Part shown: positions 36,754 to 45,088 of the stretch, one piece after another
Position numbering within the stretch: position 1 is the stretch's first letter
How the letters are laid out: every line of letters starts with the position of its first letter
Assembly (NCBI GenBank): GCA_965222015.1
Contig: CBDCTL010000010.1
Coordinates: 47,905-111,904, forward strand
DNA: 64,000 nucleotides
Source: Geminicoccaceae bacterium
GTDB taxonomy: Bacteria; Pseudomonadota; Alphaproteobacteria; Geminicoccales; Geminicoccaceae
Direction of reading: 5' to 3'
Made by a program: the position numbers and the translations under genes
Notes under the pieces: model-generated
The model's input: only the letters and a program-made list of their open reading frames with translations
What the model was told of the DNA's origin: nothing
The model's database searches: none

Positions 36754-37422
36754 GTGTCTGCAGCTAGAGGCTCGTCGTTCTCCGTCATCATCGCCGCCTG
36801 CCTTCTTCTGTCCGGCTGCCAGAGCGCCTATTACGGTGCGCTCGAGCGTATCGGGATCGAGAAACGCGATGTGCTGGTCAGCCGTGTCGAATCGGCCCAG
36901 GGATCGCAAAAGGAGGCGCAGCAGGAGTTCCGCTCCGCGCTCGAAGAGTTTCAGTCGGTCGTCGGTTTCGATGGCGGCGATCTCGAGGACCAATATGACA
37001 GGCTCGCCGACGCCTATGACGACGCGAACGACCAGGCCGAGGACGTTCGCGAGCGCATCGAGGCGGTCGAGGATGTCGGCGAGGCGCTGTTTGCCGAATG
37101 GACCGACGAGCTCGACCGCTACCAGGACCAGGGACTTCGACGGCAAAGCGAAAGCCGGCTTCGGGAGACAAGAGGGCAGTTCGACGCGCTGGTGAAAACC
37201 ATGAACCGCGCAGCCGAACGCATGGGTCCGGTGCTGGCCGTGCTGCAGGATCAGGTGCTCTATCTCAAGCACAATCTCAACGCCCGGGCGATCGCGTCGC
37301 TGGAGGTCGAGCGCGCCAATCTCGAGCAGCGGGTCGAGACGCTGATCGTCGACATGGAGAACGCCATTCAGGAAGCCGAACGCTTCATCAACGCGATGGG
37401 CGAGGGCGGGGCATCGGCGTAA
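36754..37422 (+). CDS. DUF2959-family lipoprotein
   Basis: GTG start 7 nt after GAGAGG. Lipobox LLLSGC. YYGALERIGIEKRDVLVSRVE... followed by helical acidic repeats, as in DUF2959 proteins. Confidence 0.75.
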   Translation: MSAARGSSFSVIIAACLLLSGCQSAYYGALERIGIEKRDVLVSRVESAQGSQKEAQQEFRSALEEFQSVVGFDGGDLEDQYDRLADAYDDANDQAEDVRERIEAVEDVGEALFAEWTDELDRYQDQGLRRQSESRLRETRGQFDALVKTMNRAAERMGPVLAVLQDQVLYLKHNLNARAIASLEVERANLEQRVETLIVDMENAIQEAERFINAMGEGGASA

Positions 37423-37488
37423 TGGTCGTTTTTCGACGGCGATATCATATGAAGAAGGTGACGTCGTCCGCCCACCGTCAGCTTCGCG

Positions 37489-39012
37489 ATGGACGAGACC
37501 ATGAACGCTGCTGACGCCGCCCCGAAGGACCTCGACGCCGCGACCCGCAAGGAGCTCTGCGACCTTGCCAGGGAGCGCGGGATCGAGGGCTGTTCGTCCA
37601 TGACCAAGGTCGAGTTGCGTGAAGCGCTGCAGCGCCATGGCCGGGACGGGGTGGAAAGGGCGGCGTCGCGCGTCGAGGCGTTTCGCTCCCTCGCCGAGGC
37701 TGCGGCCAGGGGCGAGTTCGTGATGCTGCCGCGGTTGCTCGTCGGCAATGATCGTCGTTTGCATGTGCGTCAGACGCTGCGGGAGGATCATCAGACCCGG
37801 ATCGCCGACAGATCCGAAGACGTCATAGTCAAGTTCGACAAGCTCGCCGGCTCGCTTTTTTCCTTCTTCCGCGGCACCGCCTTTCTCTTTTACCGCGACA
37901 TGGCCGGCGAGGACGCCTGGATGCCGACGGTGCTCACTTTGGGCGACGTGCATCCCGAGAACTTCGGGGTGATGCCCAATGCCCACAACGTGCCGATCTT
38001 CGGCGTCAACGATTTCGACGAGGCCTATTACGCGCCCTTCACCTGGGATCTGAAACGGGGCGCCGTCGGCTTCATGATCGGTGCGGAGGAGGAAGGGGGT
38101 CATGGCAGGAAGCGCCAGAAAAAAATCGCGCGGCACTTCGTCGAAGGCTATGTCGACGGCATTCGCGGTTTCGCCGAGAAAGGCAACGAGATCGACCATG
38201 AGCTTCGTATCGACAACGCGCCCAAGCTGATTCGAAAGCTGATCGAAAACTCCTTGGAGGACCGCGAGTCATGGCTGCTCGACGACTATCTCGACGAGTT
38301 CAAGCGAGGCTTTCGTTCCGATGAGGACCTCGTGCCGCTGTCGAAGCGCCGGGGCGAATTCCAGGAGCTGATCGATCGTCTGGTCGAGGAGCGCGGCATC
38401 GAGCCGCCGGCGCGCGCCGGCGAGATGCGGGTCAAGGATGTGGCAATGCGGCGGGGGCAGGGCACGGCGTCGCTTGGTCTGCCGCGCTATTACGTGTTGA
38501 TCGAGGGCAAGCGCGCCGACGGCAGCGACGATCTGATCATCGAGTTCAAGCGCGCGCGGCGATCGGCGCTGGCCGGCCTCGCGCCGCCGACGAATCACCA
38601 GTTCGACACGCCCGGTGATCGCATCGCCCACGCCCAGTCGGTCCAGCTGGTCCGGGGCGACATTTTCTACGGCAGCATCGACTTCGAGGGCATGAGCTTC
38701 ATGAGTAGGGAGCGAGCTCCCTATCGCGGCGACATCGATCTCGACGATCTTTCCAAGAAGGGCTGGAGCGAATATGCGGGGATCTGCGGCCGCATGCTGG
38801 CTCACGCGCATTCACTGTCCGATGAGATCGGCGCATTCGACCACGATATCGAGCCCATGATCCTTAAGGCGATCGGCCCGCGGGACCTGTTCGTCGACGA
38901 CATCGTCCGCTTTGCCGATGACGCTGCCGAACGGATCCGTCGCGACCATGAAGCTTTCAAGGCGGATCACGAACTCGGGGCCTTCCGCGATGTCGACATC
39001 ATCTATCGCTGA
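37489..39012 (+). CDS. DUF2252-domain protein with N-terminal Rho_N/SAP-like helix-extended-helix motif
   Basis: TRKELCDLARERGIEGCSSMTKVELREALQRH at the N-terminus, then GDVHPENFG...FGVNDFDEA...WDLKR, typical of DUF2252. The start (37489 or 37501) is uncertain. Confidence 0.75.
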   Translation: MDETMNAADAAPKDLDAATRKELCDLARERGIEGCSSMTKVELREALQRHGRDGVERAASRVEAFRSLAEAAARGEFVMLPRLLVGNDRRLHVRQTLREDHQTRIADRSEDVIVKFDKLAGSLFSFFRGTAFLFYRDMAGEDAWMPTVLTLGDVHPENFGVMPNAHNVPIFGVNDFDEAYYAPFTWDLKRGAVGFMIGAEEEGGHGRKRQKKIARHFVEGYVDGIRGFAEKGNEIDHELRIDNAPKLIRKLIENSLEDRESWLLDDYLDEFKRGFRSDEDLVPLSKRRGEFQELIDRLVEERGIEPPARAGEMRVKDVAMRRGQGTASLGLPRYYVLIEGKRADGSDDLIIEFKRARRSALAGLAPPTNHQFDTPGDRIAHAQSVQLVRGDIFYGSIDFEGMSFMSRERAPYRGDIDLDDLSKKGWSEYAGICGRMLAHAHSLSDEIGAFDHDIEPMILKAIGPRDLFVDDIVRFADDAAERIRRDHEAFKADHELGAFRDVDIIYR

Positions 39013-39036: not shown

Positions 39037-40191
39037 TCATGCTTCGCCCTGAGCCCTGCGTTCCCGCTCGACGTCGCGGCGCACCTCGTCGACGGCCGAT
39101 GCGCTGATCCAGCCTTGGGCCGCCGCGTTTTCGGCGGCGAGGAGCAGATCGGCGCAAAGCGCGGTCTGGACGCCGTGCTCGCCGATCTCGTCCAGCAGAC
39201 TGCGCGCCTCGGGATCACGCTCCGGCGCTTCGCTAAGCGCGCGGATGTAGACCGCCTGGACCCGGCCCGGATGGCGTTCGACGGCGGTCCGGTAGATCCC
39301 GGCGTCGTGCTGGCCGCTGTCGCCGATCAGAATGAAACGCAGATCGGGATAGAAATCGATCAGGGTTTCGATCGCCGCGAGCTTGTGCTCGCCATGTCCG
39401 CTCTTGATGAATTTCGTTTCGTCCCAGCCCAGATCCCGAAGGAACATCGGCCCGATCGGAATGTCGTTGAGCTCCATGAAGGCTTCGAGAAAGTCGTAGA
39501 GGTTCCAGGGGCTGGAGCTGACGTAGAAGAGGGGATTGCGGGGTTCCCCGCCCCGGCCGCGCTGCAGCGCCTTGTAGAACGGCGTGACGCCCAGAAAGGG
39601 CGAGCGCTGATCGACGCTGTTGAAAAGCGTGGTGCGCAGGTTGCGGAGGATGCTCGTGGCGCCGGTCTTCAGGATCGTGTCGTCGATGTCCGACACCACG
39701 GCGAACGCGGCGTCGGCGGGCGGTATCAGGATCGGCGCGTCGATCGAAAGCGGCCGCGGCTGACCGGCCTGATAGGGTTCGATCAGTTCCAGGCGCATCG
39801 ATTCCCAGGTCAGCCGGTCCGGCGACGATCCATCGAGGCCGTCGAACGCCGTTTCGATGTAGCCCTCCTCGTCGCTCGCGAGGTCGAGGGTCTGCCCGCC
39901 GAAATGCGCCTTCACCCTGGCGCCGGCGATCTCGTCGCTCTCGAAGCGATGATACATCGCCACGAGATTGTCGAGCGTGCCGCCGTCAGGTCTCGGCTCC
40001 CTGCTCCCGGCCTCCTCGAGAACCCGCCCGCGGGCGCGCGCGCGCAAACCGTCGCCATAGCCGCGATAGGGCTGGATGGTGACCGGATCGAGCCAGCCGA
40101 AACGTTTCTTGATGCGCGACCAGGAGCGGTCGAACCGGCTTTCCAGACGATGCCCGATCCTGAGCGCGAACGCTCCTATCGAAGACCTCAA
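39037..40191 (-). CDS. App1-like (DUF2183) phosphatidate-phosphatase-family protein
   Basis: YRGYGDG..., VVSDIDDTIL (DxDxT), FYVSSSPWNLYDFL, GDSGQHDAGIY. The ORF-track start at 40374 overlaps the tRNA. TTG 40191, preceded by GAGGAGG, is proposed as the start. Confidence 0.75.
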   Translation of the reverse strand: MRSSIGAFALRIGHRLESRFDRSWSRIKKRFGWLDPVTIQPYRGYGDGLRARARGRVLEEAGSREPRPDGGTLDNLVAMYHRFESDEIAGARVKAHFGGQTLDLASDEEGYIETAFDGLDGSSPDRLTWESMRLELIEPYQAGQPRPLSIDAPILIPPADAAFAVVSDIDDTILKTGATSILRNLRTTLFNSVDQRSPFLGVTPFYKALQRGRGGEPRNPLFYVSSSPWNLYDFLEAFMELNDIPIGPMFLRDLGWDETKFIKSGHGEHKLAAIETLIDFYPDLRFILIGDSGQHDAGIYRTAVERHPGRVQAVYIRALSEAPERDPEARSLLDEIGEHGVQTALCADLLLAAENAAAQGWISASAVDEVRRDVERERRAQGEA

Positions 40192-40341
40192 GATCGACCT
40201 CCTCGTCGTTTCCGATCGGCGTCCGGGCGCACGAAGCCTGCGCAGACGGGCCAGCCCGTCAAACGATCCAAGGTCGAGCGCATCATGGCCGCCCCTTATA
40301 TTGCCGGGCCGGACGACGCGCCGGCGACGGGGAACAGGGTC

Positions 40342-40416
40342 TGGAGCGGGTGAAGGGAATCGAACCCTCGACACGTAGCTTGGGAAGCTACTGCTCTACC
40401 ACTGAGCTACACCCGC
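40342..40416 (-). tRNA. tRNA-Gly (anticodon CCC), CCA encoded
   Basis: The reverse complement gcgggtgtagctcagtggtagagcagtagcttcccaagctacgtgtcgagggttcgattcccttcacccgctcca folds into a cloverleaf. Acceptor is GCGGGTG/CACCCGC, anticodon loop TTCCCAA, T-loop TTCGATT. Confidence 0.92.
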
Positions 40417-40492: not shown

Positions 40493-42337
40493 CTAGCGCG
40501 TGGTGAGCTTGACCTCGATGCGGCGGTTTCGGCGGAAGGCGATTTCGTCGTTGCGTTCGTCCAGCGGCTGGTACTGGGCGAAGCCTGCTACGGCGATGCG
40601 CTCGGGCGGGATGCCGGCATCGATCAGGAACTTGCCGACGGTGGTGGCGCGCGCCGCGGAAAGCTCCCAGTTGGACGGGAAATCGACATTGCGGATCGGA
40701 CGGCGATCGGTATGGCCGTTGATCTGCAGGACCCAGGGCAGATCGCTCGGGATCTCGCTCGAAATCTCCCTGAGACTCTGGGCGAGGGCCCTGAGCTCGT
40801 CCTCGCCGGTCGGCTCCAGCTCGGCCGAGCCGCTCGGGAACAGGATCTCGGACTGGAATACGAAGCGGTCGCCGACCACCTGCACGTCGGTGCGATTGCC
40901 GAGAACTTCGCGAAGCCGGCCGAAGAATTCGGAGCGGAAGCGGCTGAGCTCCTCGACCTTGCCGGCGAGCGCGACGTTCAGCTTGCTGCCGAGATCGGCG
41001 ATCGTCACCTTCTGTTCGTCGACCTTGGCGCGCTCCAGATCGAGGGCCTGTTCGAGCGAGGCGAGCTGGGTGCGAAGCTCGTTGATCTGCCGGTTCAGAA
41101 GCTCGATCTGGGCAAGCGACTGGTCCGCGCGTGCGCGCTGGGCGTCCGCCTCGTCCTCGGCATCGCCGACGCTGCGCAGCAGTTCCGCGATGCGCACCGC
41201 CCGCTCCTCCAGCTCGCGCTGGGCGAGGAGGGTCCGGTCCTGCTCGCTGGCGAGGCGGCCTTCGAGCTGCGAGGCGCGGTCGCGCACCTGGCCGAGCTCC
41301 ACCAGAAGCGCTTCCCGCGCGCGCTTCAGCTCCTCGAAACTCGCCTCCGAGATCTCGGGTCGATTCTGCGCGGCCTCGAGCTGGGCCGCGAGCTCGGCGA
41401 TCCGCCGCTCGCGCTGGGACAGGAGGTCTTCGTCGCTCTCGCTTGCGGCGTTCGCCTCTTCGAGGGCGGCCTCCAGCTCGGCGATGCGCGCGTCGCGTTC
41501 CGAGCGCGCCTCCTCGCCGGTTTCGAGCAGGGCCGAAAGCTCGGCGATCCGCTCCTCCAGGCTCTTTCGCTCCGCCTCGGAACGGTCGAGCGCCGCGACC
41601 TGCACTTCGAGCCCCTCGGCCTCGTCCCGGGCGGCGCTCAACAATGCGGTCAGCCGCTCGATCTCGTCGGCGGCCTCGGTCTTGGCCTTCTCCGCCTCCC
41701 GCAGCAATGCGGTCATCTCGGCGACGTCGAGCTCGAGGTTCTTCCTGGTCTCCGTCAGCGCCTCGATGTCGCGCCGGAGCTGCACGAGCTCGGCGAGCCG
41801 CGCCTCGATCGTCGCCTGGTTGGCCTCGATCGTCTTTTGCGCTTCCTCGAGCTCGGTTTCGAGCTCGGCCCGGAGCTGATTCGCGCGGGTGAGATCGTCC
41901 TCCAGCTCGTCGGTCTGGCCGAGATCCCTTCTGAGCTCGGCGAGGGTCTGGGCGAGCAGTGTCTTGTCCTCTTCGAGCGTGATCAGCCGGTCCCGGTAGT
42001 CGTCCCGTTCGGCCGTGATTTCGGCGAGATCGGCGCTGTTGTCGTCACGATCGGCGTTGGCGGCCTGGAGATCGGCGGTGAGCTTGGCGACCGAGCGGCG
42101 AAGCTCGGCATTGGTGTCCTGCTCCAGGCTGAGCTGGTCGGTGAGCTCCGCGATCGCCTGTTCGAGGCTGAGAAGCCGGCTGTCCTTGCCCTCCAGAAGC
42201 CGGCTCAGAAAGAACTGGCCGAGAACGAAGACCATCAAGAGGAAGAAGATGACCAGGATCAGCGTGGACAGCGCGTCGACGAAGCCAGGCCAGGTGTCGG
42301 CGGTGGATTGACGGTGATCGCGGCGGGAGCGGGCCAT
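40493..42337 (-). CDS. MotB/OmpA-like peptidoglycan-binding protein with ~400-aa coiled-coil insert
   Basis: N-terminus WPGFVDALSTLILVIFFLLMVFVL is a MotB-type TM with the conserved Asp (D21). Residues ~50-450 are E/A/L/R-rich heptads. The C-terminal OmpA_C-like domain has FPSGSAEL...INGHTDRRPI...SNWELSAARA...NRRIEV. Confidence 0.85.
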   Translation of the reverse strand: MARSRRDHRQSTADTWPGFVDALSTLILVIFFLLMVFVLGQFFLSRLLEGKDSRLLSLEQAIAELTDQLSLEQDTNAELRRSVAKLTADLQAANADRDDNSADLAEITAERDDYRDRLITLEEDKTLLAQTLAELRRDLGQTDELEDDLTRANQLRAELETELEEAQKTIEANQATIEARLAELVQLRRDIEALTETRKNLELDVAEMTALLREAEKAKTEAADEIERLTALLSAARDEAEGLEVQVAALDRSEAERKSLEERIAELSALLETGEEARSERDARIAELEAALEEANAASESDEDLLSQRERRIAELAAQLEAAQNRPEISEASFEELKRAREALLVELGQVRDRASQLEGRLASEQDRTLLAQRELEERAVRIAELLRSVGDAEDEADAQRARADQSLAQIELLNRQINELRTQLASLEQALDLERAKVDEQKVTIADLGSKLNVALAGKVEELSRFRSEFFGRLREVLGNRTDVQVVGDRFVFQSEILFPSGSAELEPTGEDELRALAQSLREISSEIPSDLPWVLQINGHTDRRPIRNVDFPSNWELSAARATTVGKFLIDAGIPPERIAVAGFAQYQPLDERNDEIAFRRNRRIEVKLTTR

Positions 42338-42359
42338 GGTCCGTGCAGTCCGTCAGATG

Positions 42360-43556
42360 TCAGTCGGCGGCGTTGCGGCGGCTCTGGCCCGTCTCGCTGC
42401 CTGCCGCGGCCGCGGCGATGGTGCGCGCGACCATCTTGATCTCGGAGCGAAGCTCGTTGGTCATCTGGCTCCGGCCCTGCACCGTCTCGTCGAGAATGCG
42501 CGCGAGATAGACGTCCATGTTTCTGATGTGGTTGCGCGTGGTCTCGTCGAGCGCGTTGCCGTCGCCCTCGGCGAGCCTGGCCAGCACCGGGCGAAGATCG
42601 TCCTGGTTCGAGATCAGTCGTCCGAGCAGCGCCTGCTCGGTCGCGATCTGGTCGCCGAGGGTGGTCAGCCGCTCGGTCAGGTTGACCATGCTGCTCTGCA
42701 CGGTGCGCTGGTTCTCCTCGGAACGCTCGATGCTGCGCTGCATGTTCTGCATGTTCTCGGCCGTCTGTTCCATCAGCGCCTGCAGATAGGCGGGGATCGA
42801 CACGTCGCCGGCGGCGCGCGCGACGCCCGAGGCGGCCGAGCGGGCCGGCTCGTCGCGGCTGAGCCGGGTCAGGCTGGTGAGCCACTCCTCCATTTCGTTG
42901 TAGAAGGCATTCTGCGCCTGGGTCGCCTGCAGATCGAGAAAGCCGAGGACGAGCGAACCGGCGAGGCCGAACAGCGAGGAGCTGAACGCCGTGCCCATGC
43001 CGTCCATCGGCGCCGCCAGCCCCGCCTTCAGTTCGTCGAACACCGTCGCGATGTCGCCCTCGGCACCGACCGAGAGGCCTGCGAACACCCCGCTCACCGA
43101 ATAGAGGGTCTCCAGAAGGCCCCAGAAGGTGCCGAGCAGGCCGAGATAGATGAGGAGGCTGGTCTCGTAGCGGGTGATGTCCCGCTGCTCGTCCAGGCGA
43201 GCGGCGATGCTGTCCAGAAGATAGCGGACGGAATTGGCGGGCAGCATCACCCGGCCGCGTCGCTCCTGCTCGCCGAGCGCGTTGGCGACCGGGGTCAGGA
43301 GAAAGGGAGCCGCCTGGATCGCGTAGCCGGGCTTGGACGTGCGCAGCCCTTCGATCCAGCGGATCTCCGGCTTCAGCATCCAGACCCGGCGCAGCACGTA
43401 GAAGATGCCGATCAGGAGAACGCCGAGAATCAGTCCGTTCAGGATCGGATTGTACATGAAGATGCGAAAGACGATGTCGTAGGCGAACGCGGCGGCCGCC
43501 ACCGCCAGGGCCAGAAACAAGATCATCCGGTTGATGAAACGTTGCGGATTGCTCAT
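42360..43556 (-). CDS. MotA/TolQ/ExbB-family proton-channel protein with ~170-aa C-terminal extension
   Basis: YLGLLGTFWGLLETL ... GMGTAFSSSLFGLAGSLVLGFLDLQ form the MotA_ExbB core. The gene ends 22 nt upstream of the MotB-like gene. Confidence 0.85.
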   Translation of the reverse strand: MSNPQRFINRMILFLALAVAAAAFAYDIVFRIFMYNPILNGLILGVLLIGIFYVLRRVWMLKPEIRWIEGLRTSKPGYAIQAAPFLLTPVANALGEQERRGRVMLPANSVRYLLDSIAARLDEQRDITRYETSLLIYLGLLGTFWGLLETLYSVSGVFAGLSVGAEGDIATVFDELKAGLAAPMDGMGTAFSSSLFGLAGSLVLGFLDLQATQAQNAFYNEMEEWLTSLTRLSRDEPARSAASGVARAAGDVSIPAYLQALMEQTAENMQNMQRSIERSEENQRTVQSSMVNLTERLTTLGDQIATEQALLGRLISNQDDLRPVLARLAEGDGNALDETTRNHIRNMDVYLARILDETVQGRSQMTNELRSEIKMVARTIAAAAAGSETGQSRRNAAD

Positions 43557-43830: not shown

Positions 43831-44151
43831 ATGCAGCGGCATCACGACATGGGCGGCCTGGAGGCGGGGCCGATCGAGCGCTCGGAGCACGACCACGCGC
43901 CCTGGGAAAAGCGGGTCGATGCGATCATGCGGCTGCTGACCGACAAGAAGCGCCGGATCATGACCGTCGACGAGCTCAGGCGCAACATCGAGGAGCTGGG
44001 CCCGGGCGCCTACGACGAGATGAGCTACTATCAGCGCTGGATGGCCTCGATCGGCAACAACCTTCTCGAAAAGGGCGTGATCGGGGTGGACGAACTCGGG
44101 CGAAAGATGGCCGAGGTCGAGGCCCGCTGGCGGTCGGCGAGGGAAGGATGA
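43831..44151 (+). CDS. Nitrile-hydratase beta-subunit N-terminal-half homolog
   Basis: MQRHHDMGGLEAGPI...HAPWEKRVDAIMRLL...SYYQRWMASIGNNLLEKGVI matches the N-terminal half of NHase beta. GGAGGGG RBS lies before ATG 43831. Confidence 0.8.
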   Translation: MQRHHDMGGLEAGPIERSEHDHAPWEKRVDAIMRLLTDKKRRIMTVDELRRNIEELGPGAYDEMSYYQRWMASIGNNLLEKGVIGVDELGRKMAEVEARWRSAREG

Positions 44152-44456
44152 GCGGGGACTTCGCGGTCGGCGAGCGGGTGACCGTGCGCCGGGCCTGGCC
44201 GCCCGGCCATGTGCGCACGCCCCACTATATCCGCGGCCGGTCCGGTATCGTGGAAAGCGTGGCCGGGCGCTTCGCCGATCCGGAGGAGCTCGCCTATGGC
44301 CGGGACGGCCTGCCGGCAAAGGCGCTCTATCGGATCCGGTTCCTGCAGGCCGATCTCTGGCCGGACTATGCGGGATCGGCGGCGGACAGTCTGGTGGTCG
44401 ACGTCTACGAGCACTGGCTGGAACGGCAGGAATCCAGGGAGGACGGGACGCCATGA
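44148..44456 (+). CDS. Nitrile-hydratase beta-subunit C-terminal (SH3-like) half homolog
   Basis: ATGA overlap with the previous gene. FAVGERVTVRRAWPPGHVRTPHYIRGRSGIVESV...YRIRF...VDVYEHWLE matches the C-terminal barrel of NHase beta. Confidence 0.8.
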   Translation: MSGDFAVGERVTVRRAWPPGHVRTPHYIRGRSGIVESVAGRFADPEELAYGRDGLPAKALYRIRFLQADLWPDYAGSAADSLVVDVYEHWLERQESREDGTP

Positions 44457-45088
44457 GCGCAGGTCACGATCACCGCCATCCGAAGCAGCCGGATCTGGAG
44501 GATCGGCCCTTCGATCACCATCAGCTCATGGCCGAAGCGGTCGGTGAGCTTCTGATCGAAAAGGGCGTGTTTTCCGCGGCCGAGCTTCGCAAGACCATCG
44601 AATCCATCGACGCCCGCTCGCCCGCGGACGGCGCGAAAGTCGTGGCACGCGCCTGGGTCGATCCGGCCTACAGGGCGCGGCTGCTCGACAACGCCAACCA
44701 GGCCGCCGCCGAGCTCGGGATCGACGCCGGCGCCATTCCGATTCGCGTGGTCGAGAACACCGAGCGCGTGCACAATGTCATCTGCTGCACGCTCTGCTCC
44801 TGCTATCCCCGCCTGCTGCTCGGCCTGCCGCCCGACTGGTACAAGGCGCGCGCCTATCGCTCCCGCGTGGTGCGCGAGCCGCGCGCCGTGCTCGAGGAGT
44901 TCGGCACGGTCGTTCCCGAGGACGTCGAGCTCAGGGTGCATGACAGCACGGCCGACCTCCGCTATATGGTCCTGCCGCGCCGTCCGGCCGGCACCGAGGC
45001 GATGGGCGAAGCCGAACTCGCCGGCCTGGTGACCCGGGACTGCATGATCGGCACCGCCGTGGTCGAGCCGACGCGGGAGGGCAGCTGA
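44453..45088 (+). CDS. Nitrile-hydratase-family alpha subunit, cobalt-type metal site
   Basis: ATGA overlap with the previous gene. The VCTLCSC-type claw appears as CCTLCSCYP (CTLCSC at 44786-44803); Thr in this motif is the Co-type signature. ARAWVDPAYRARLL is also present. Confidence 0.9.
   Translation: MSAGHDHRHPKQPDLEDRPFDHHQLMAEAVGELLIEKGVFSAAELRKTIESIDARSPADGAKVVARAWVDPAYRARLLDNANQAAAELGIDAGAIPIRVVENTERVHNVICCTLCSCYPRLLLGLPPDWYKARAYRSRVVREPRAVLEEFGTVVPEDVELRVHDSTADLRYMVLPRRPAGTEAMGEAELAGLVTRDCMIGTAVVEPTREGS

What the first reader, a model, noticed from the sequence alone, without database searches (positions are those of the whole stretch)
40493..43556. Orphan MotA/MotB-like ion-channel pair whose stator B subunit carries a ~400-residue coiled coil before its peptidoglycan-binding domain
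Seen:
- The two genes are 22 nt apart and sit outside any flagellar, Tol, Ton or gliding context. Their neighbours are a tRNA, an App1-like gene and nitrile hydratase.
- The A subunit (398 aa) has the MotA_ExbB core plus a ~170-aa helical C-terminal tail.
- The B subunit (614 aa) has the MotB-type TM with the conserved Asp (WPGFVDALSTL). It then has ~400 residues of E/A/L/R heptad repeats and an OmpA_C-like domain (NGHTDRRP...SNWELSAARA...NRRIEV).
Established: MotAB, ExbBD, TolQR, AglRQS, GldLM and ZorAB are 5:2-type ion-driven motors. In Zorya the long coiled-coil tail is on the A subunit and cytoplasmic.
Inference: by MotB topology the coil here would be periplasmic. At about 0.15 nm per residue it is long enough to span or exceed the periplasm, which suggests a motor that transmits force to, or senses, the outer envelope. 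I do not know its function.
Basis: partly seen in the sequence, partly recalled or inferred. Interest (0 to 1): 0.68.

Follow-up and report, generated by a model that had tools for sequence, protein, structure and literature searches.

The report
Conserved ZorAB-like motor, long periplasmic coil
These two genes encode what looks like a membrane ion-driven motor anchored to the cell wall; it is a widespread but unstudied housekeeping pair of Alphaproteobacteria, and this lineage has stretched the cell-wall-anchoring subunit with an unusually long helical rod.

Summary
Two co-oriented genes lie 22 nt apart. A (398 aa) has a 5:2-motor A-subunit fold and a helical cytoplasmic tail of about 180 aa. 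B (614 aa) has a MotB-type transmembrane helix with an invariant Asp21, about 435 helical residues, then an OmpA/MotB-type peptidoglycan-binding domain.

The pair is not an orphan oddity. A followed by B occurs in all 52 related genome loci examined and in Sinorhizobium meliloti. It often sits in housekeeping synteny (efp, suhB, A, B, a convergent ABC transporter). B passes the cut-off of the NCBIfam equivalog PRK09039 ('peptidoglycan-binding protein', no function assigned). A has no curated family; its nearest known relative by sequence and fold is ZorA of the Zorya anti-phage system. No Zorya effector genes, defence-island context or viral copies were found.

The long coil is an insertion of about 270 residues into the middle of a shorter ancestral coil of about 150 residues. 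B ranges from 339 to 718 aa among orthologues.

Its variable length and peptidoglycan-binding tip argue against a fixed span to the outer membrane.

I found no publication on this pair. The most likely reading is an uncharacterised housekeeping, wall-anchored ion-driven rotary motor. This is a new variant of a known kind, of moderate interest.

The parts
42360..43556 (-). Gene A: 398-aa MotA/ExbB/ZorA-like A subunit of a 5:2-type motor
   Evidence: ORF. The AF2 model has pLDDT 84.7. Foldseek top hits are ZorA 8vvn, TolQ and ExbB. PADLOC ZorA1 scores E=1.1e-15. There are 503 clusters (at 50% identity) with E<1e-30, mostly 370-400 aa.
43386..43538 (-). A residues 7-57: two N-terminal hydrophobic helices (predicted TM1-TM2 hairpin)
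   Evidence: Hydropathy peaks at 12-30 and 37-55. AF2 helices are 4-33 and 37-59. Arg residues flank both ends, which suggests N-in. The topology is inferred, not shown.
42927..43166 (-). A residues 131-210: pore-lining TM3-loop-TM4 core (LGLLGTFWGLL ... MGTAFSSSLFGLAGS)
   Evidence: This is the most conserved part of A (62% mean identity). L138, G139, T143, G146, L147, P183, M187, F191, G197 and L198 are invariant. It is the region matched by Pfam MotA_ExbB and the ZorA models.
42363..42911 (-). A residues 216-398: cytoplasmic helical tail (linker, then helices 256-330 and 338-389)
   Evidence: AF2 secondary structure, pLDDT about 76-86 in the helices. It is retained at full length across the family. 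The PADLOC ZorA2 and NCBIfam ZorA_2 alignments extend into it.
40493..42337 (-). Gene B: 614-aa MotB/ZorB-like B subunit, member of NCBIfam PRK09039
   Evidence: ORF. NF006543 scores 452 bits against a cut-off of 305. B always follows A in the related loci.
42203..42292 (-). B residues 16-45: single TM helix with the conserved Asp21 (codon 42275-42277)
   Evidence: Sequence WPGFVDALSTL.... W16, P17, V20, D21, A22 and L23 are invariant in 38 homologues and conserved in 14 distant orthologues and in S. meliloti. Hydropathy peak at 26-44.
40901..42202 (-). B residues 46-479: periplasmic alpha-helical coiled-coil region (~435 aa)
   Evidence: Composition and heptad scan. AF2 helices 19-270, 274-324 and 331-479.
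41153..42037 (-). B residues ~101-395: variable-length middle of the coil (lineage-specific expansion)
   Evidence: Alignment of 14 orthologues of 339-718 aa shows gaps concentrated here; identity is 26-35%, against 51-53% in the flanking coil segments. S. meliloti B (342 aa) aligns only to window residues 1-78 and ~390-614. AF2 pLDDT dips to 49-64 at 250-340.
40496..40888 (-). B residues 484-614: OmpA/MotB-type peptidoglycan-binding domain
   Evidence: Pfam OmpA 59 bits. PDB sequence hits to MotS, MotB and PomB. Foldseek top hits are the MotS/MotB/PomB periplasmic domains. G541-D544, N556-S560, R563 and N604-E608 are invariant.

Best explanation
A and B form a self-contained, chromosomally conserved ion-driven motor of the 5:2 class (A5B2). 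It is most closely related to the ZorAB module of Zorya, but it has a housekeeping role, probably related to the cell envelope, rather than a role in phage defence, motility, or Tol or Ton function.

Proposed mechanism:
- Two B chains sit inside a ring of A subunits.
- Their TM helices carry Asp21, the ion-binding site, facing the conserved Thr143 and Ser192/Ser194 of A's TM3 and TM4.
- The B helices continue out of the membrane as a long periplasmic coiled coil. It ends in a dimeric OmpA/MotB-type domain that binds peptidoglycan and so fixes B.
- Ion flow then turns the A ring, and with it the five cytoplasmic helical tails, around the wall-anchored B axle.
- The tails deliver the output to a partner that is not encoded next to the pair.
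- The coil acts as a tether or lever between motor and wall, and possibly as a tension-sensitive gate. Its length is evolutionarily free (about 150 to 540 residues). The window's lineage carries an expanded version of about 435 residues.

Shown here: the domain anatomy, the folds, the conserved residues, the gene pairing, the housekeeping synteny, and the absence of Zorya partner genes.

Inferred: the 5:2 stoichiometry, rotation, the ion used, the geometry of the coil (straight, tilted or folded back), and the envelope-related role.
For: Anatomy and conservation of the motor parts:
- two co-oriented genes 22 nt apart.
- the A model (pLDDT 84.7) matches ZorA (8vvn, 21% identity), TolQ and ExbB.
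- the best sequence relatives of A are ZorA models (PADLOC ZorA1 E=1e-15; weak NCBIfam ZorA_4/ZorA_2 hits). 8vvn_C (ZorA) is the only 5:2-motor chain among the 60 PDB profile hits listed. No NCBIfam MotA, TolQ or ExbB model appears among A's hits at E<0.1.
- the pore-helix residues of A are invariant.
- B Asp21 and the WPG(F/Y)VDA motif are conserved from Geminicoccaceae to Sinorhizobium and Tahibacter.
- a MotB-type peptidoglycan-binding domain with conserved binding motifs.

Pairing and context:
- A is followed by B in all 52 loci.
- efp, suhB and thiE lie upstream and a convergent ABC transporter downstream in many loci, including S. meliloti.
- A is more than 70% identical across the top-listed homologues, which indicates strong purifying selection.
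- no relative of A in IMG/VR viral contigs.
- the neighbours in the window are metabolic genes; none has a Zorya-effector-like domain (helicase, nuclease).
- (PMC11946911): the ZorAB precedent for a wall-anchored 5:2 motor whose cytoplasmic A tail carries the output.
Against: - No experiment or multimer model supports the stoichiometry or rotation.
- Pfam MotA_ExbB is below its cut-off for the window's A, and the Foldseek E-values are modest (about 5e-4, TM-score about 0.5 on the target).
- A seems to have two N-terminal hydrophobic helices (four TM in all), whereas EcZorA has three.
- Even the shortest coil (about 150 residues, about 22 nm if straight) exceeds the roughly 9 nm distance from inner membrane to peptidoglycan quoted for E. 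coli. The geometry by which the binding domain reaches the wall is therefore unexplained.
- No output partner is identified.
- The envelope-related function is a guess from the anatomy.
Confidence: 0.6

Rival explanations
1. Trans-envelope force transducer. The B coiled coil spans the periplasm so that the motor pulls on or senses the outer membrane, in the way TolQR-TolA or ExbBD-TonB do.
For: The coil is periplasmic and long: 435 residues, about 64 nm if straight, and about 22 nm even in the shortest orthologue. That is comparable to or larger than a periplasm.
Against: The distal end is a MotB-type peptidoglycan-binding domain, not an outer-membrane-binding or TonB-box-binding domain. Coil length varies more than three-fold between orthologues, which fits poorly with a fixed span. 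No outer-membrane partner is conserved next to the pair.
Confidence: 0.15
2. Mainly a static tether between inner membrane and peptidoglycan. The coil and OmpA-like domain do the work (spacing or anchoring), and the A ring is a membrane anchor or regulator rather than a working motor.
For: One Geminicoccaceae MAG (L033) encodes, directly downstream of the pair, a 1040-aa protein with a plain TM anchor, an ~850-aa coil and the same OmpA-like domain, but no Asp motif. The module can therefore exist without a motor.
Against: The ion-pathway residues are invariant (Asp21 in B; Thr143, Ser192/194 and the Gly/Pro motifs in A), and TM3-TM4 is the best-conserved part of A. A's cytoplasmic tail is conserved at full length.
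Confidence: 0.12
3. A Zorya-type anti-phage sensor (short-tailed ZorA as in type II) whose effector is encoded elsewhere or has been lost.
For: The best family hits for A are ZorA models, and B hits ZorB3. A's length is close to that of the NCBIfam ZorA_2 model (383 positions).
Against: All scores are far below the family cut-offs (18 bits against 500; 16 against 100). No ZorC, D, E, F or G-like gene is nearby. The locus has a fixed housekeeping synteny across orders, and A is very highly conserved. No relative was found on viral contigs. ZorB has no linker, whereas this B has a coil of 150-540 residues.
Confidence: 0.06
4. An extra flagellar stator (this is how NCBI and JGI name the homologues: 'flagellar motor protein MotA', 'chemotaxis protein MotB').
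For: The source names. B's C-terminal domain is most similar to those of MotS, MotB, PomB and MotD.
Against: No NCBIfam MotA equivalog appears among A's hits at E<0.1. There are no flagellar genes in the neighbourhood. A's cytoplasmic loop between TM2 and TM3 is only about 70 residues, and a long tail follows TM4. B has a rigid coil where MotB has a plug and a flexible linker.
Confidence: 0.04

Closest known systems
ZorAB, the membrane module of the Zorya anti-phage system (EcZorAB, PMC11946911; Shewanella ZorAB, PDB 8vvn)
   Same: A is nearest to ZorA by sequence profile and by fold. Both have a helical cytoplasmic tail after the last TM of A. Both have a B subunit with an N-terminal TM Asp and a C-terminal MotB-type peptidoglycan-binding domain. 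In both, Thr and Ser on the pore helices correspond to ZorA Thr147/Ser184.
   Different: There are no ZorC/D/E/F/G genes, and the setting is housekeeping synteny rather than a defence island. A's tail is about 180 residues in two helices, against a roughly 500-residue, 70-nm single-helix bundle in EcZorA. A probably has four rather than three TM helices. ZorB's binding domain is fused to the TM without a linker, whereas this B has 150-540 coiled-coil residues in between.
NCBIfam PRK09039 (NF006542-NF006546), 'peptidoglycan-binding protein'
   Same: B passes the NF006543 cut-off (452 against 305 bits). S. meliloti, Tahibacter and Rhodobacterales orthologues match sister sub-models over their full length.
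   Different: The family has a name but no assigned function. Most sub-models are about 343-350 aa. The window's B carries about 270 extra coil residues and matches NF006543 in two pieces. One sub-model (NF006542, 627 aa) already represents long-coil forms.
MotAB/PomAB flagellar stator
   Same: The 5:2-type architecture, the Asp in the B TM, and the OmpA-like wall-binding domain of B (best PDB hits are MotS, MotB and PomB). A possibly has four TM helices.
   Different: No flagellar context. No NCBIfam MotA equivalog among A's hits at E<0.1. A short cytoplasmic loop where MotA has its torque-generating domain. A coiled coil instead of a plug and flexible linker.
TolQR-TolA and ExbBD-TonB
   Same: The fold of the A subunit (Foldseek hits). 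The idea of an inner-membrane motor coupled to a long periplasmic helical element (TolA domain II).
   Different: In Tol and Ton the long periplasmic element is a separate third protein, and TolR and ExbD lack an OmpA-like domain. Here the rod is part of B and ends in a peptidoglycan-binding domain. No tolA, tolB, pal or tonB gene is adjacent.

Membership tests
5:2 ion-driven motors (MotAB/ExbBD/TolQR/ZorAB class) | A subunit with the MotA/ExbB/TolQ fold and conserved pore-helix motifs | tested here: met
   The AF2 model matches ZorA, TolQ and ExbB chains. The LGLLGTFWG and GMGTAFSSS motifs are invariant or nearly so. Pfam MotA_ExbB is below cut-off for the window's A (15.4 bits) but above it for the S. 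meliloti orthologue (23.9 against 22.9).
5:2 ion-driven motors (MotAB/ExbBD/TolQR/ZorAB class) | B subunit with a single N-terminal TM helix carrying a conserved Asp | tested here: met
   Asp21 lies in WPGFVDAL and is invariant.
5:2 ion-driven motors (MotAB/ExbBD/TolQR/ZorAB class) | A5B2 stoichiometry and ion-driven rotation | not testable with these tools
   Only monomer predictions were available. This needs AlphaFold-multimer, cryo-EM and mutant analysis.
Zorya (ZorAB plus effectors) | ZorA/ZorB family membership by curated score | tested here: not met
   NCBIfam ZorA_4 18 bits against a cut-off of 500; ZorA_2 16.4 against 100. The PADLOC hits are significant (ZorA1 E=1e-15, ZorB3 E=8.5e-22) but partial.
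Zorya (ZorAB plus effectors) | Adjacent soluble partners (ZorC/ZorD, ZorE, or ZorF/ZorG) | tested here: not met
   The window's neighbours are a tRNA, APP1, DUF2252, nitrile hydratase and a histidine kinase. The only neighbours conserved across loci are efp, suhB, thiE and an ABC transporter. PADLOC itself was run only on A and B, not on the neighbours.
Zorya (ZorAB plus effectors) | ZorB peptidoglycan-binding domain fused directly to the TM; very long ZorA tail | tested here: not met
   B has a coil of about 435 residues between the TM and the domain. A's tail is about 180 residues. The EcZorAB features are taken from PMC11946911.
Zorya (ZorAB plus effectors) | Anti-phage activity | not testable with these tools
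   Needs phage challenge assays.
NCBIfam PRK09039 peptidoglycan-binding protein (B subunit) | Score above the curated equivalog cut-off | tested here: met
   NF006543 452.1 bits against 305. The orthologues match sister models over their full length.
Flagellar stator MotAB/PomAB | MotA/MotB equivalog scores and flagellar gene context | tested here: not met
   No NCBIfam MotA model among A's hits at E<0.1. The MotB, MotS and MotD models match only B's C-terminal domain and fall far below their cut-offs. No flagellar genes are nearby.
TolQR / ExbBD | TolR/ExbD-type B subunit (no OmpA domain) and a TolA/TonB partner in the cluster | tested here: not met
   B has an OmpA-type domain. No NCBIfam TolQ or ExbB model among A's hits at E<0.1. 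No tolA, tolB, pal or tonB gene is adjacent.

The most novel reading that the evidence does not exclude
The pair represents a further functional class of 5:2 rotary motors. It would be a core-genome, housekeeping relative (perhaps the ancestral type) of Zorya's ZorAB in Alphaproteobacteria. In this class a peptidoglycan-anchored B axle carries a periplasmic coiled-coil rod of freely evolvable length, and a rotating pentamer of short cytoplasmic A tails drives or signals to an as yet unknown cellular process such as envelope surveillance or maintenance.
Probability: 0.35. Interest if true: 0.8.

Novelty: new variant of a known kind. Interest (0 to 1): 0.55.

Why it matters
Every 5:2 motor characterised so far has revealed a distinct way of using the membrane potential: flagellar rotation, Ton uptake, Tol-Pal division, gliding, and Zorya defence. 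This pair is strongly conserved and widespread in Alphaproteobacteria, including genetically tractable species such as Sinorhizobium meliloti. It has no assigned function, and its nearest known relative is a defence module.

Working out its role could show what cellular job the Zorya motor was recruited from. It could also reveal an unrecognised energised link between the inner membrane and the cell wall in bacteria that lack Braun's lipoprotein. The natural series of coil lengths (about 150 to 540 residues) offers a ready-made experiment on how rod length matters.

Tried and rejected
- **Literature.** No paper on this pair was found.
  - The only trace is a ChvI-bound fragment listed inside SMc03993 (PMC3687685). 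I think SMc03993 is the S. meliloti A gene, but I could not verify the mapping.
  - The mBio 2025 stator phylogeny (PMC12505986) excludes Zorya and does not mention coiled-coil B subunits.
  - The CenKR and ChvGI papers mention nothing relevant.
- **RgsF link.** In S. meliloti the sel1-repeat protein two genes upstream has the same length (381 aa) as RgsF/SMc03995. No sel1 homologue is found near the pair in any other locus, so I dropped a functional link.
- **Internal duplication as the origin of the long coil.** No DNA tandem repeats and no off-diagonal self-matches in the protein.
- **Hairpin versus straight coil.** The monomer AF2 run gives only helix breaks (271-273 and 325-330, near the midpoint). 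No coordinates are returned, and Foldseek matched only the OmpA-like domain. The question is unresolved.
- **PDB search with A alone.** No hits. A profile was needed.
- **Cluster-member look-up for the taxonomy of distant A relatives.** Uninformative.
- **Exact look-up of the window's A in assemblies.** Not on record.


Full report
**1. What is in the sequence**

The two ORFs are exactly as reported. A is at 42360-43556 (-), 398 aa. B is at 40493-42337 (-), 614 aa. They are separated by 22 nt, CATCTGACGGACTGCACGGACC.

Downstream on the same strand lies tRNA-Gly(CCC) at 40342-40416, then a gene with an APP1 phosphatidate-phosphatase domain. Upstream, and divergent, is a three-gene nitrile-hydratase-like cluster. 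No flagellar, Tol, Ton or gliding gene lies within about 6 kb on either side. No promoter or terminator consensus of note was found around the pair.

**2. The A subunit**

Pfam MotA_ExbB matches only weakly: 15.4 bits against a cut-off of 22.9. No NCBIfam MotA, TolQ or ExbB model appears among the hits at E<0.1. The only NCBIfam hits are very weak ones to ZorA_4 and ZorA_2. In the PADLOC library, which holds only defence-system models, all significant hits are to ZorA models. The best is ZorA1 at E=1.1e-15 over residues 124-320.

A alone finds nothing in the PDB. A profile of 54 diverse homologues finds one 5:2-motor chain among the 60 hits listed: 8vvn_C, the ZorA of a Shewanella type I ZorAB complex, at E=0.005.

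An AlphaFold2 model built on that alignment is confident (mean pLDDT 84.7). Its best Foldseek matches in the PDB are ZorA (8vvn_D, 21% identity), then TolQ and ExbB chains.

The model has these parts:
- two N-terminal hydrophobic helices (4-33 and 37-59);
- a short cytoplasmic segment;
- a long helix that includes TM3 (107-160);
- a short acidic loop;
- a helix that includes TM4 (169-231);
- a poorly ordered linker;
- two long helices (256-330 and 338-389).

Hydropathy and charge distribution fit an N-in, four-TM topology with the tail in the cytoplasm. This topology is an inference.

TM3-TM4 is the best-conserved part of A. L138, G139, T143, G146, L147, P183, M187, F191, G197 and L198 are invariant, and S192 and S194 are nearly so. 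In EcZorA the corresponding Thr147 and Ser184 form the ion filter next to ZorB Asp26 (PMC11946911).

**3. The B subunit**

The N-terminus is Arg-rich. It is followed by one TM helix that carries Asp21 in WPGFVDALSTL.

Residues 46-479 are about 17% Glu, 17% Leu, 16% Ala and 11% Arg, with a single Pro. AlphaFold2 predicts helices 19-270, 274-324 and 331-479.

Residues 484-614 are an OmpA/MotB-type domain:
- Pfam OmpA scores 59 bits.
- The best PDB sequence and fold matches are the periplasmic domains of MotS, MotB and PomB.
- The motifs GHTD, NWELS..R and NRRIE are invariant.

B has a single TM helix, and its C-terminal domain must reach peptidoglycan, so the coil has to be periplasmic.

**4. 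The pair is a conserved family, not an orphan**

- A has thousands of homologues. Identity is above 70% across the top-listed homologues, including named Geminicoccaceae MAGs.
- In a library of 50%-identity representatives, 503 clusters match at E<1e-30. Most are 370-400 aa and match end to end, so the tail belongs to the family.
- A pattern scan of one genome per species returned 52 loci. They come from Geminicoccaceae, Minwuia, Kordiimonadales, Magnetospirillaceae, a Rhodobacterales MAG, and the gammaproteobacterial Tahibacter/Rhodanobacteraceae group.
- In every locus a B homologue, or fragments of one, follows A directly.
- A tblastn search of plasmid records found the pair on a 3.7-Mb Sinorhizobium meliloti replicon that the record labels pSymB. 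There A is annotated 'MotA/TolQ/ExbB proton channel family protein' (368 aa) and B 'peptidoglycan-binding protein' (342 aa).
- B passes the cut-off of the NCBIfam equivalog NF006543 (PRK09039.1-2) with 452 bits against 305.
- The S. meliloti, Tahibacter and Rhodobacterales B proteins match the sister models NF006544, NF006543 and NF006542.
- These NCBIfam models carry a name but no function. A has no NCBIfam model at all.

**5. Genomic context**

Clustering the flanking ORFs of all loci shows recurrent neighbours. EF-P, inositol monophosphatase (SuhB) and ThiE lie upstream, and a convergent ABC transporter lies downstream. The same order is seen in S. meliloti.

These are housekeeping genes with no obvious functional link to the pair. 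The pattern is what one expects of an old, vertically inherited core locus, not of a defence island.

In the window and its closest relatives (L001, L002, L006, L007, L033) the upstream neighbour has been replaced by the nitrile-hydratase cluster.

No third gene is conserved with the pair. A profile scan of IMG/VR found no relative of A on viral contigs.

**6. The long coil is a lineage-specific expansion**

B orthologues measure 339, 361, 407, 431, 449, 463, 482, 610-652 and 718 aa. Close relatives range from 481 to 697 aa.

The alignment shows several conserved blocks:
- the TM segment (72% identity);
- the first ~55 coil residues (51%);
- the last ~70 coil residues (53%);
- the segment YRSEFFGRLR..GDRFVF (77%);
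- the OmpA-like domain (63%).

The length differences fall almost entirely between window residues ~100 and ~395. S. meliloti B aligns to window residues 1-78 and ~390-614 only.

The family baseline is therefore a coil of about 150 residues, and the window's lineage has about 270 more. A 627-position NCBIfam sub-model, best matched by the 718-aa Rhodobacterales protein, shows that long forms exist elsewhere in the family. The expansion shows no trace of recent internal duplication.

**7. Geometry**

- about 22 nm in the shortest orthologue;
- about 64 nm in the window's B;
- about 80 nm in the longest orthologue.

All of these exceed the roughly 9 nm between inner membrane and peptidoglycan quoted for E. 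coli. The rod must therefore lie obliquely or parallel to the membrane, fold back on itself, or anchor to wall material at a distance from the motor.

The AF2 helix breaks at 271-273 and 325-330 lie near the midpoint of the coil, in the low-confidence variable region. This is compatible with a fold-back tip but does not prove one. I could not obtain coordinates or a dimer model.

The three-fold variation in length, and the peptidoglycan-binding tip, argue against a fixed ruler that reaches the outer membrane.

**8. Most likely mechanism**

I take the pair to be a working 5:2-type motor.
- B2 is fixed to the wall through its OmpA-like domains and the coiled-coil rod.
- Ions pass via Asp21 and the Thr/Ser filter.
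- The A ring and its five cytoplasmic tails turn around B.
- The tails hand the output to a partner encoded elsewhere.

This copies the logic shown for ZorAB (PMC11946911), but in a housekeeping setting.

Three observations make defence unlikely and a basic, probably envelope-related, role likely: the strong conservation of A, the fixed synteny, and the absence of effector genes.

A motor-less paralogue (TM anchor, ~850-residue coil, same OmpA-like domain) sits next to the pair in one MAG. This suggests that the rod plus wall-binding module also has value as a tether on its own.

The rivals are a trans-envelope transducer, a static tether, a Zorya variant and a flagellar stator. They are weighed in the rival-explanations section of this report.

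**9. Comparison with known systems, and novelty**

The pair works like, and is most similar to, ZorAB. It fails the membership tests for Zorya on family scores, partner genes and ZorB architecture. It also fails those for MotAB and for TolQR/ExbBD. B is a member of the named but uncharacterised PRK09039 family.

All ten full-text searches found no study of this pair. That library does not cover subscription-only papers, so an existing characterisation cannot be excluded.

I rate it a new variant of a known kind. It is moderately interesting because it is widespread, conserved, tractable in model species, and may show what the Zorya motor evolved from.

Noticed in passing
window 43834-45088 (+): The nitrile-hydratase-like cluster has its beta subunit split into two genes, NHase_beta_N (ends at 44151) and NHase_beta_C (44148-44456). 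They are followed by the alpha subunit (44453-45088), which contains a CTLCSC metal-binding motif. The stop and start codons overlap. The three-subunit layout recalls, from memory, thiocyanate hydrolase and toyocamycin nitrile hydratase. The cluster is conserved next to the motor pair in the closest relatives.
   Followed up: partly
window 39037-40416 (-): The mechanical ORF for the APP1-domain protein (start at 40374) overlaps tRNA-Gly(CCC) at 40342-40416 on the same strand. Its real start is therefore probably further downstream. The APP1 catalytic domain begins only at residue 224.
   Followed up: no
L033 11039-14161 (+): A Geminicoccaceae MAG encodes a 1040-aa protein directly downstream of its A-B pair. 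It has a plain N-terminal TM anchor (no Asp motif), an Ala/Glu/Leu-rich coil of about 850 residues, and an OmpA-like domain 41% identical to that of the window's B. It is a motor-less paralogue of the rod plus wall-binding module.
   Followed up: partly
L019 and L035 (both on contig CAVWRK010000014.1): One MAG contig carries two copies of the A-B pair about 480 kb apart. A is 71% and 73% identical to the window's A. The B genes appear fragmented in both copies, possibly through long-read frameshift errors.
   Followed up: no
L053 3361-4506 (+) (S. meliloti): Two genes upstream of the S. meliloti pair lies a 381-aa sel1-repeat protein. It has the same length and domain type as RgsF/SMc03995, which that study classes among the Rgs proteins indispensable for growth (PMC7327166). 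The adjacency is not conserved in other loci.
   Followed up: partly
window 36754-39012 (+): A DUF2959 protein with a hydrophobic N-terminus followed by Cys (possibly a lipoprotein) and a DUF2252 protein sit next to the APP1 gene. All three are of unknown or poorly known function.
   Followed up: no
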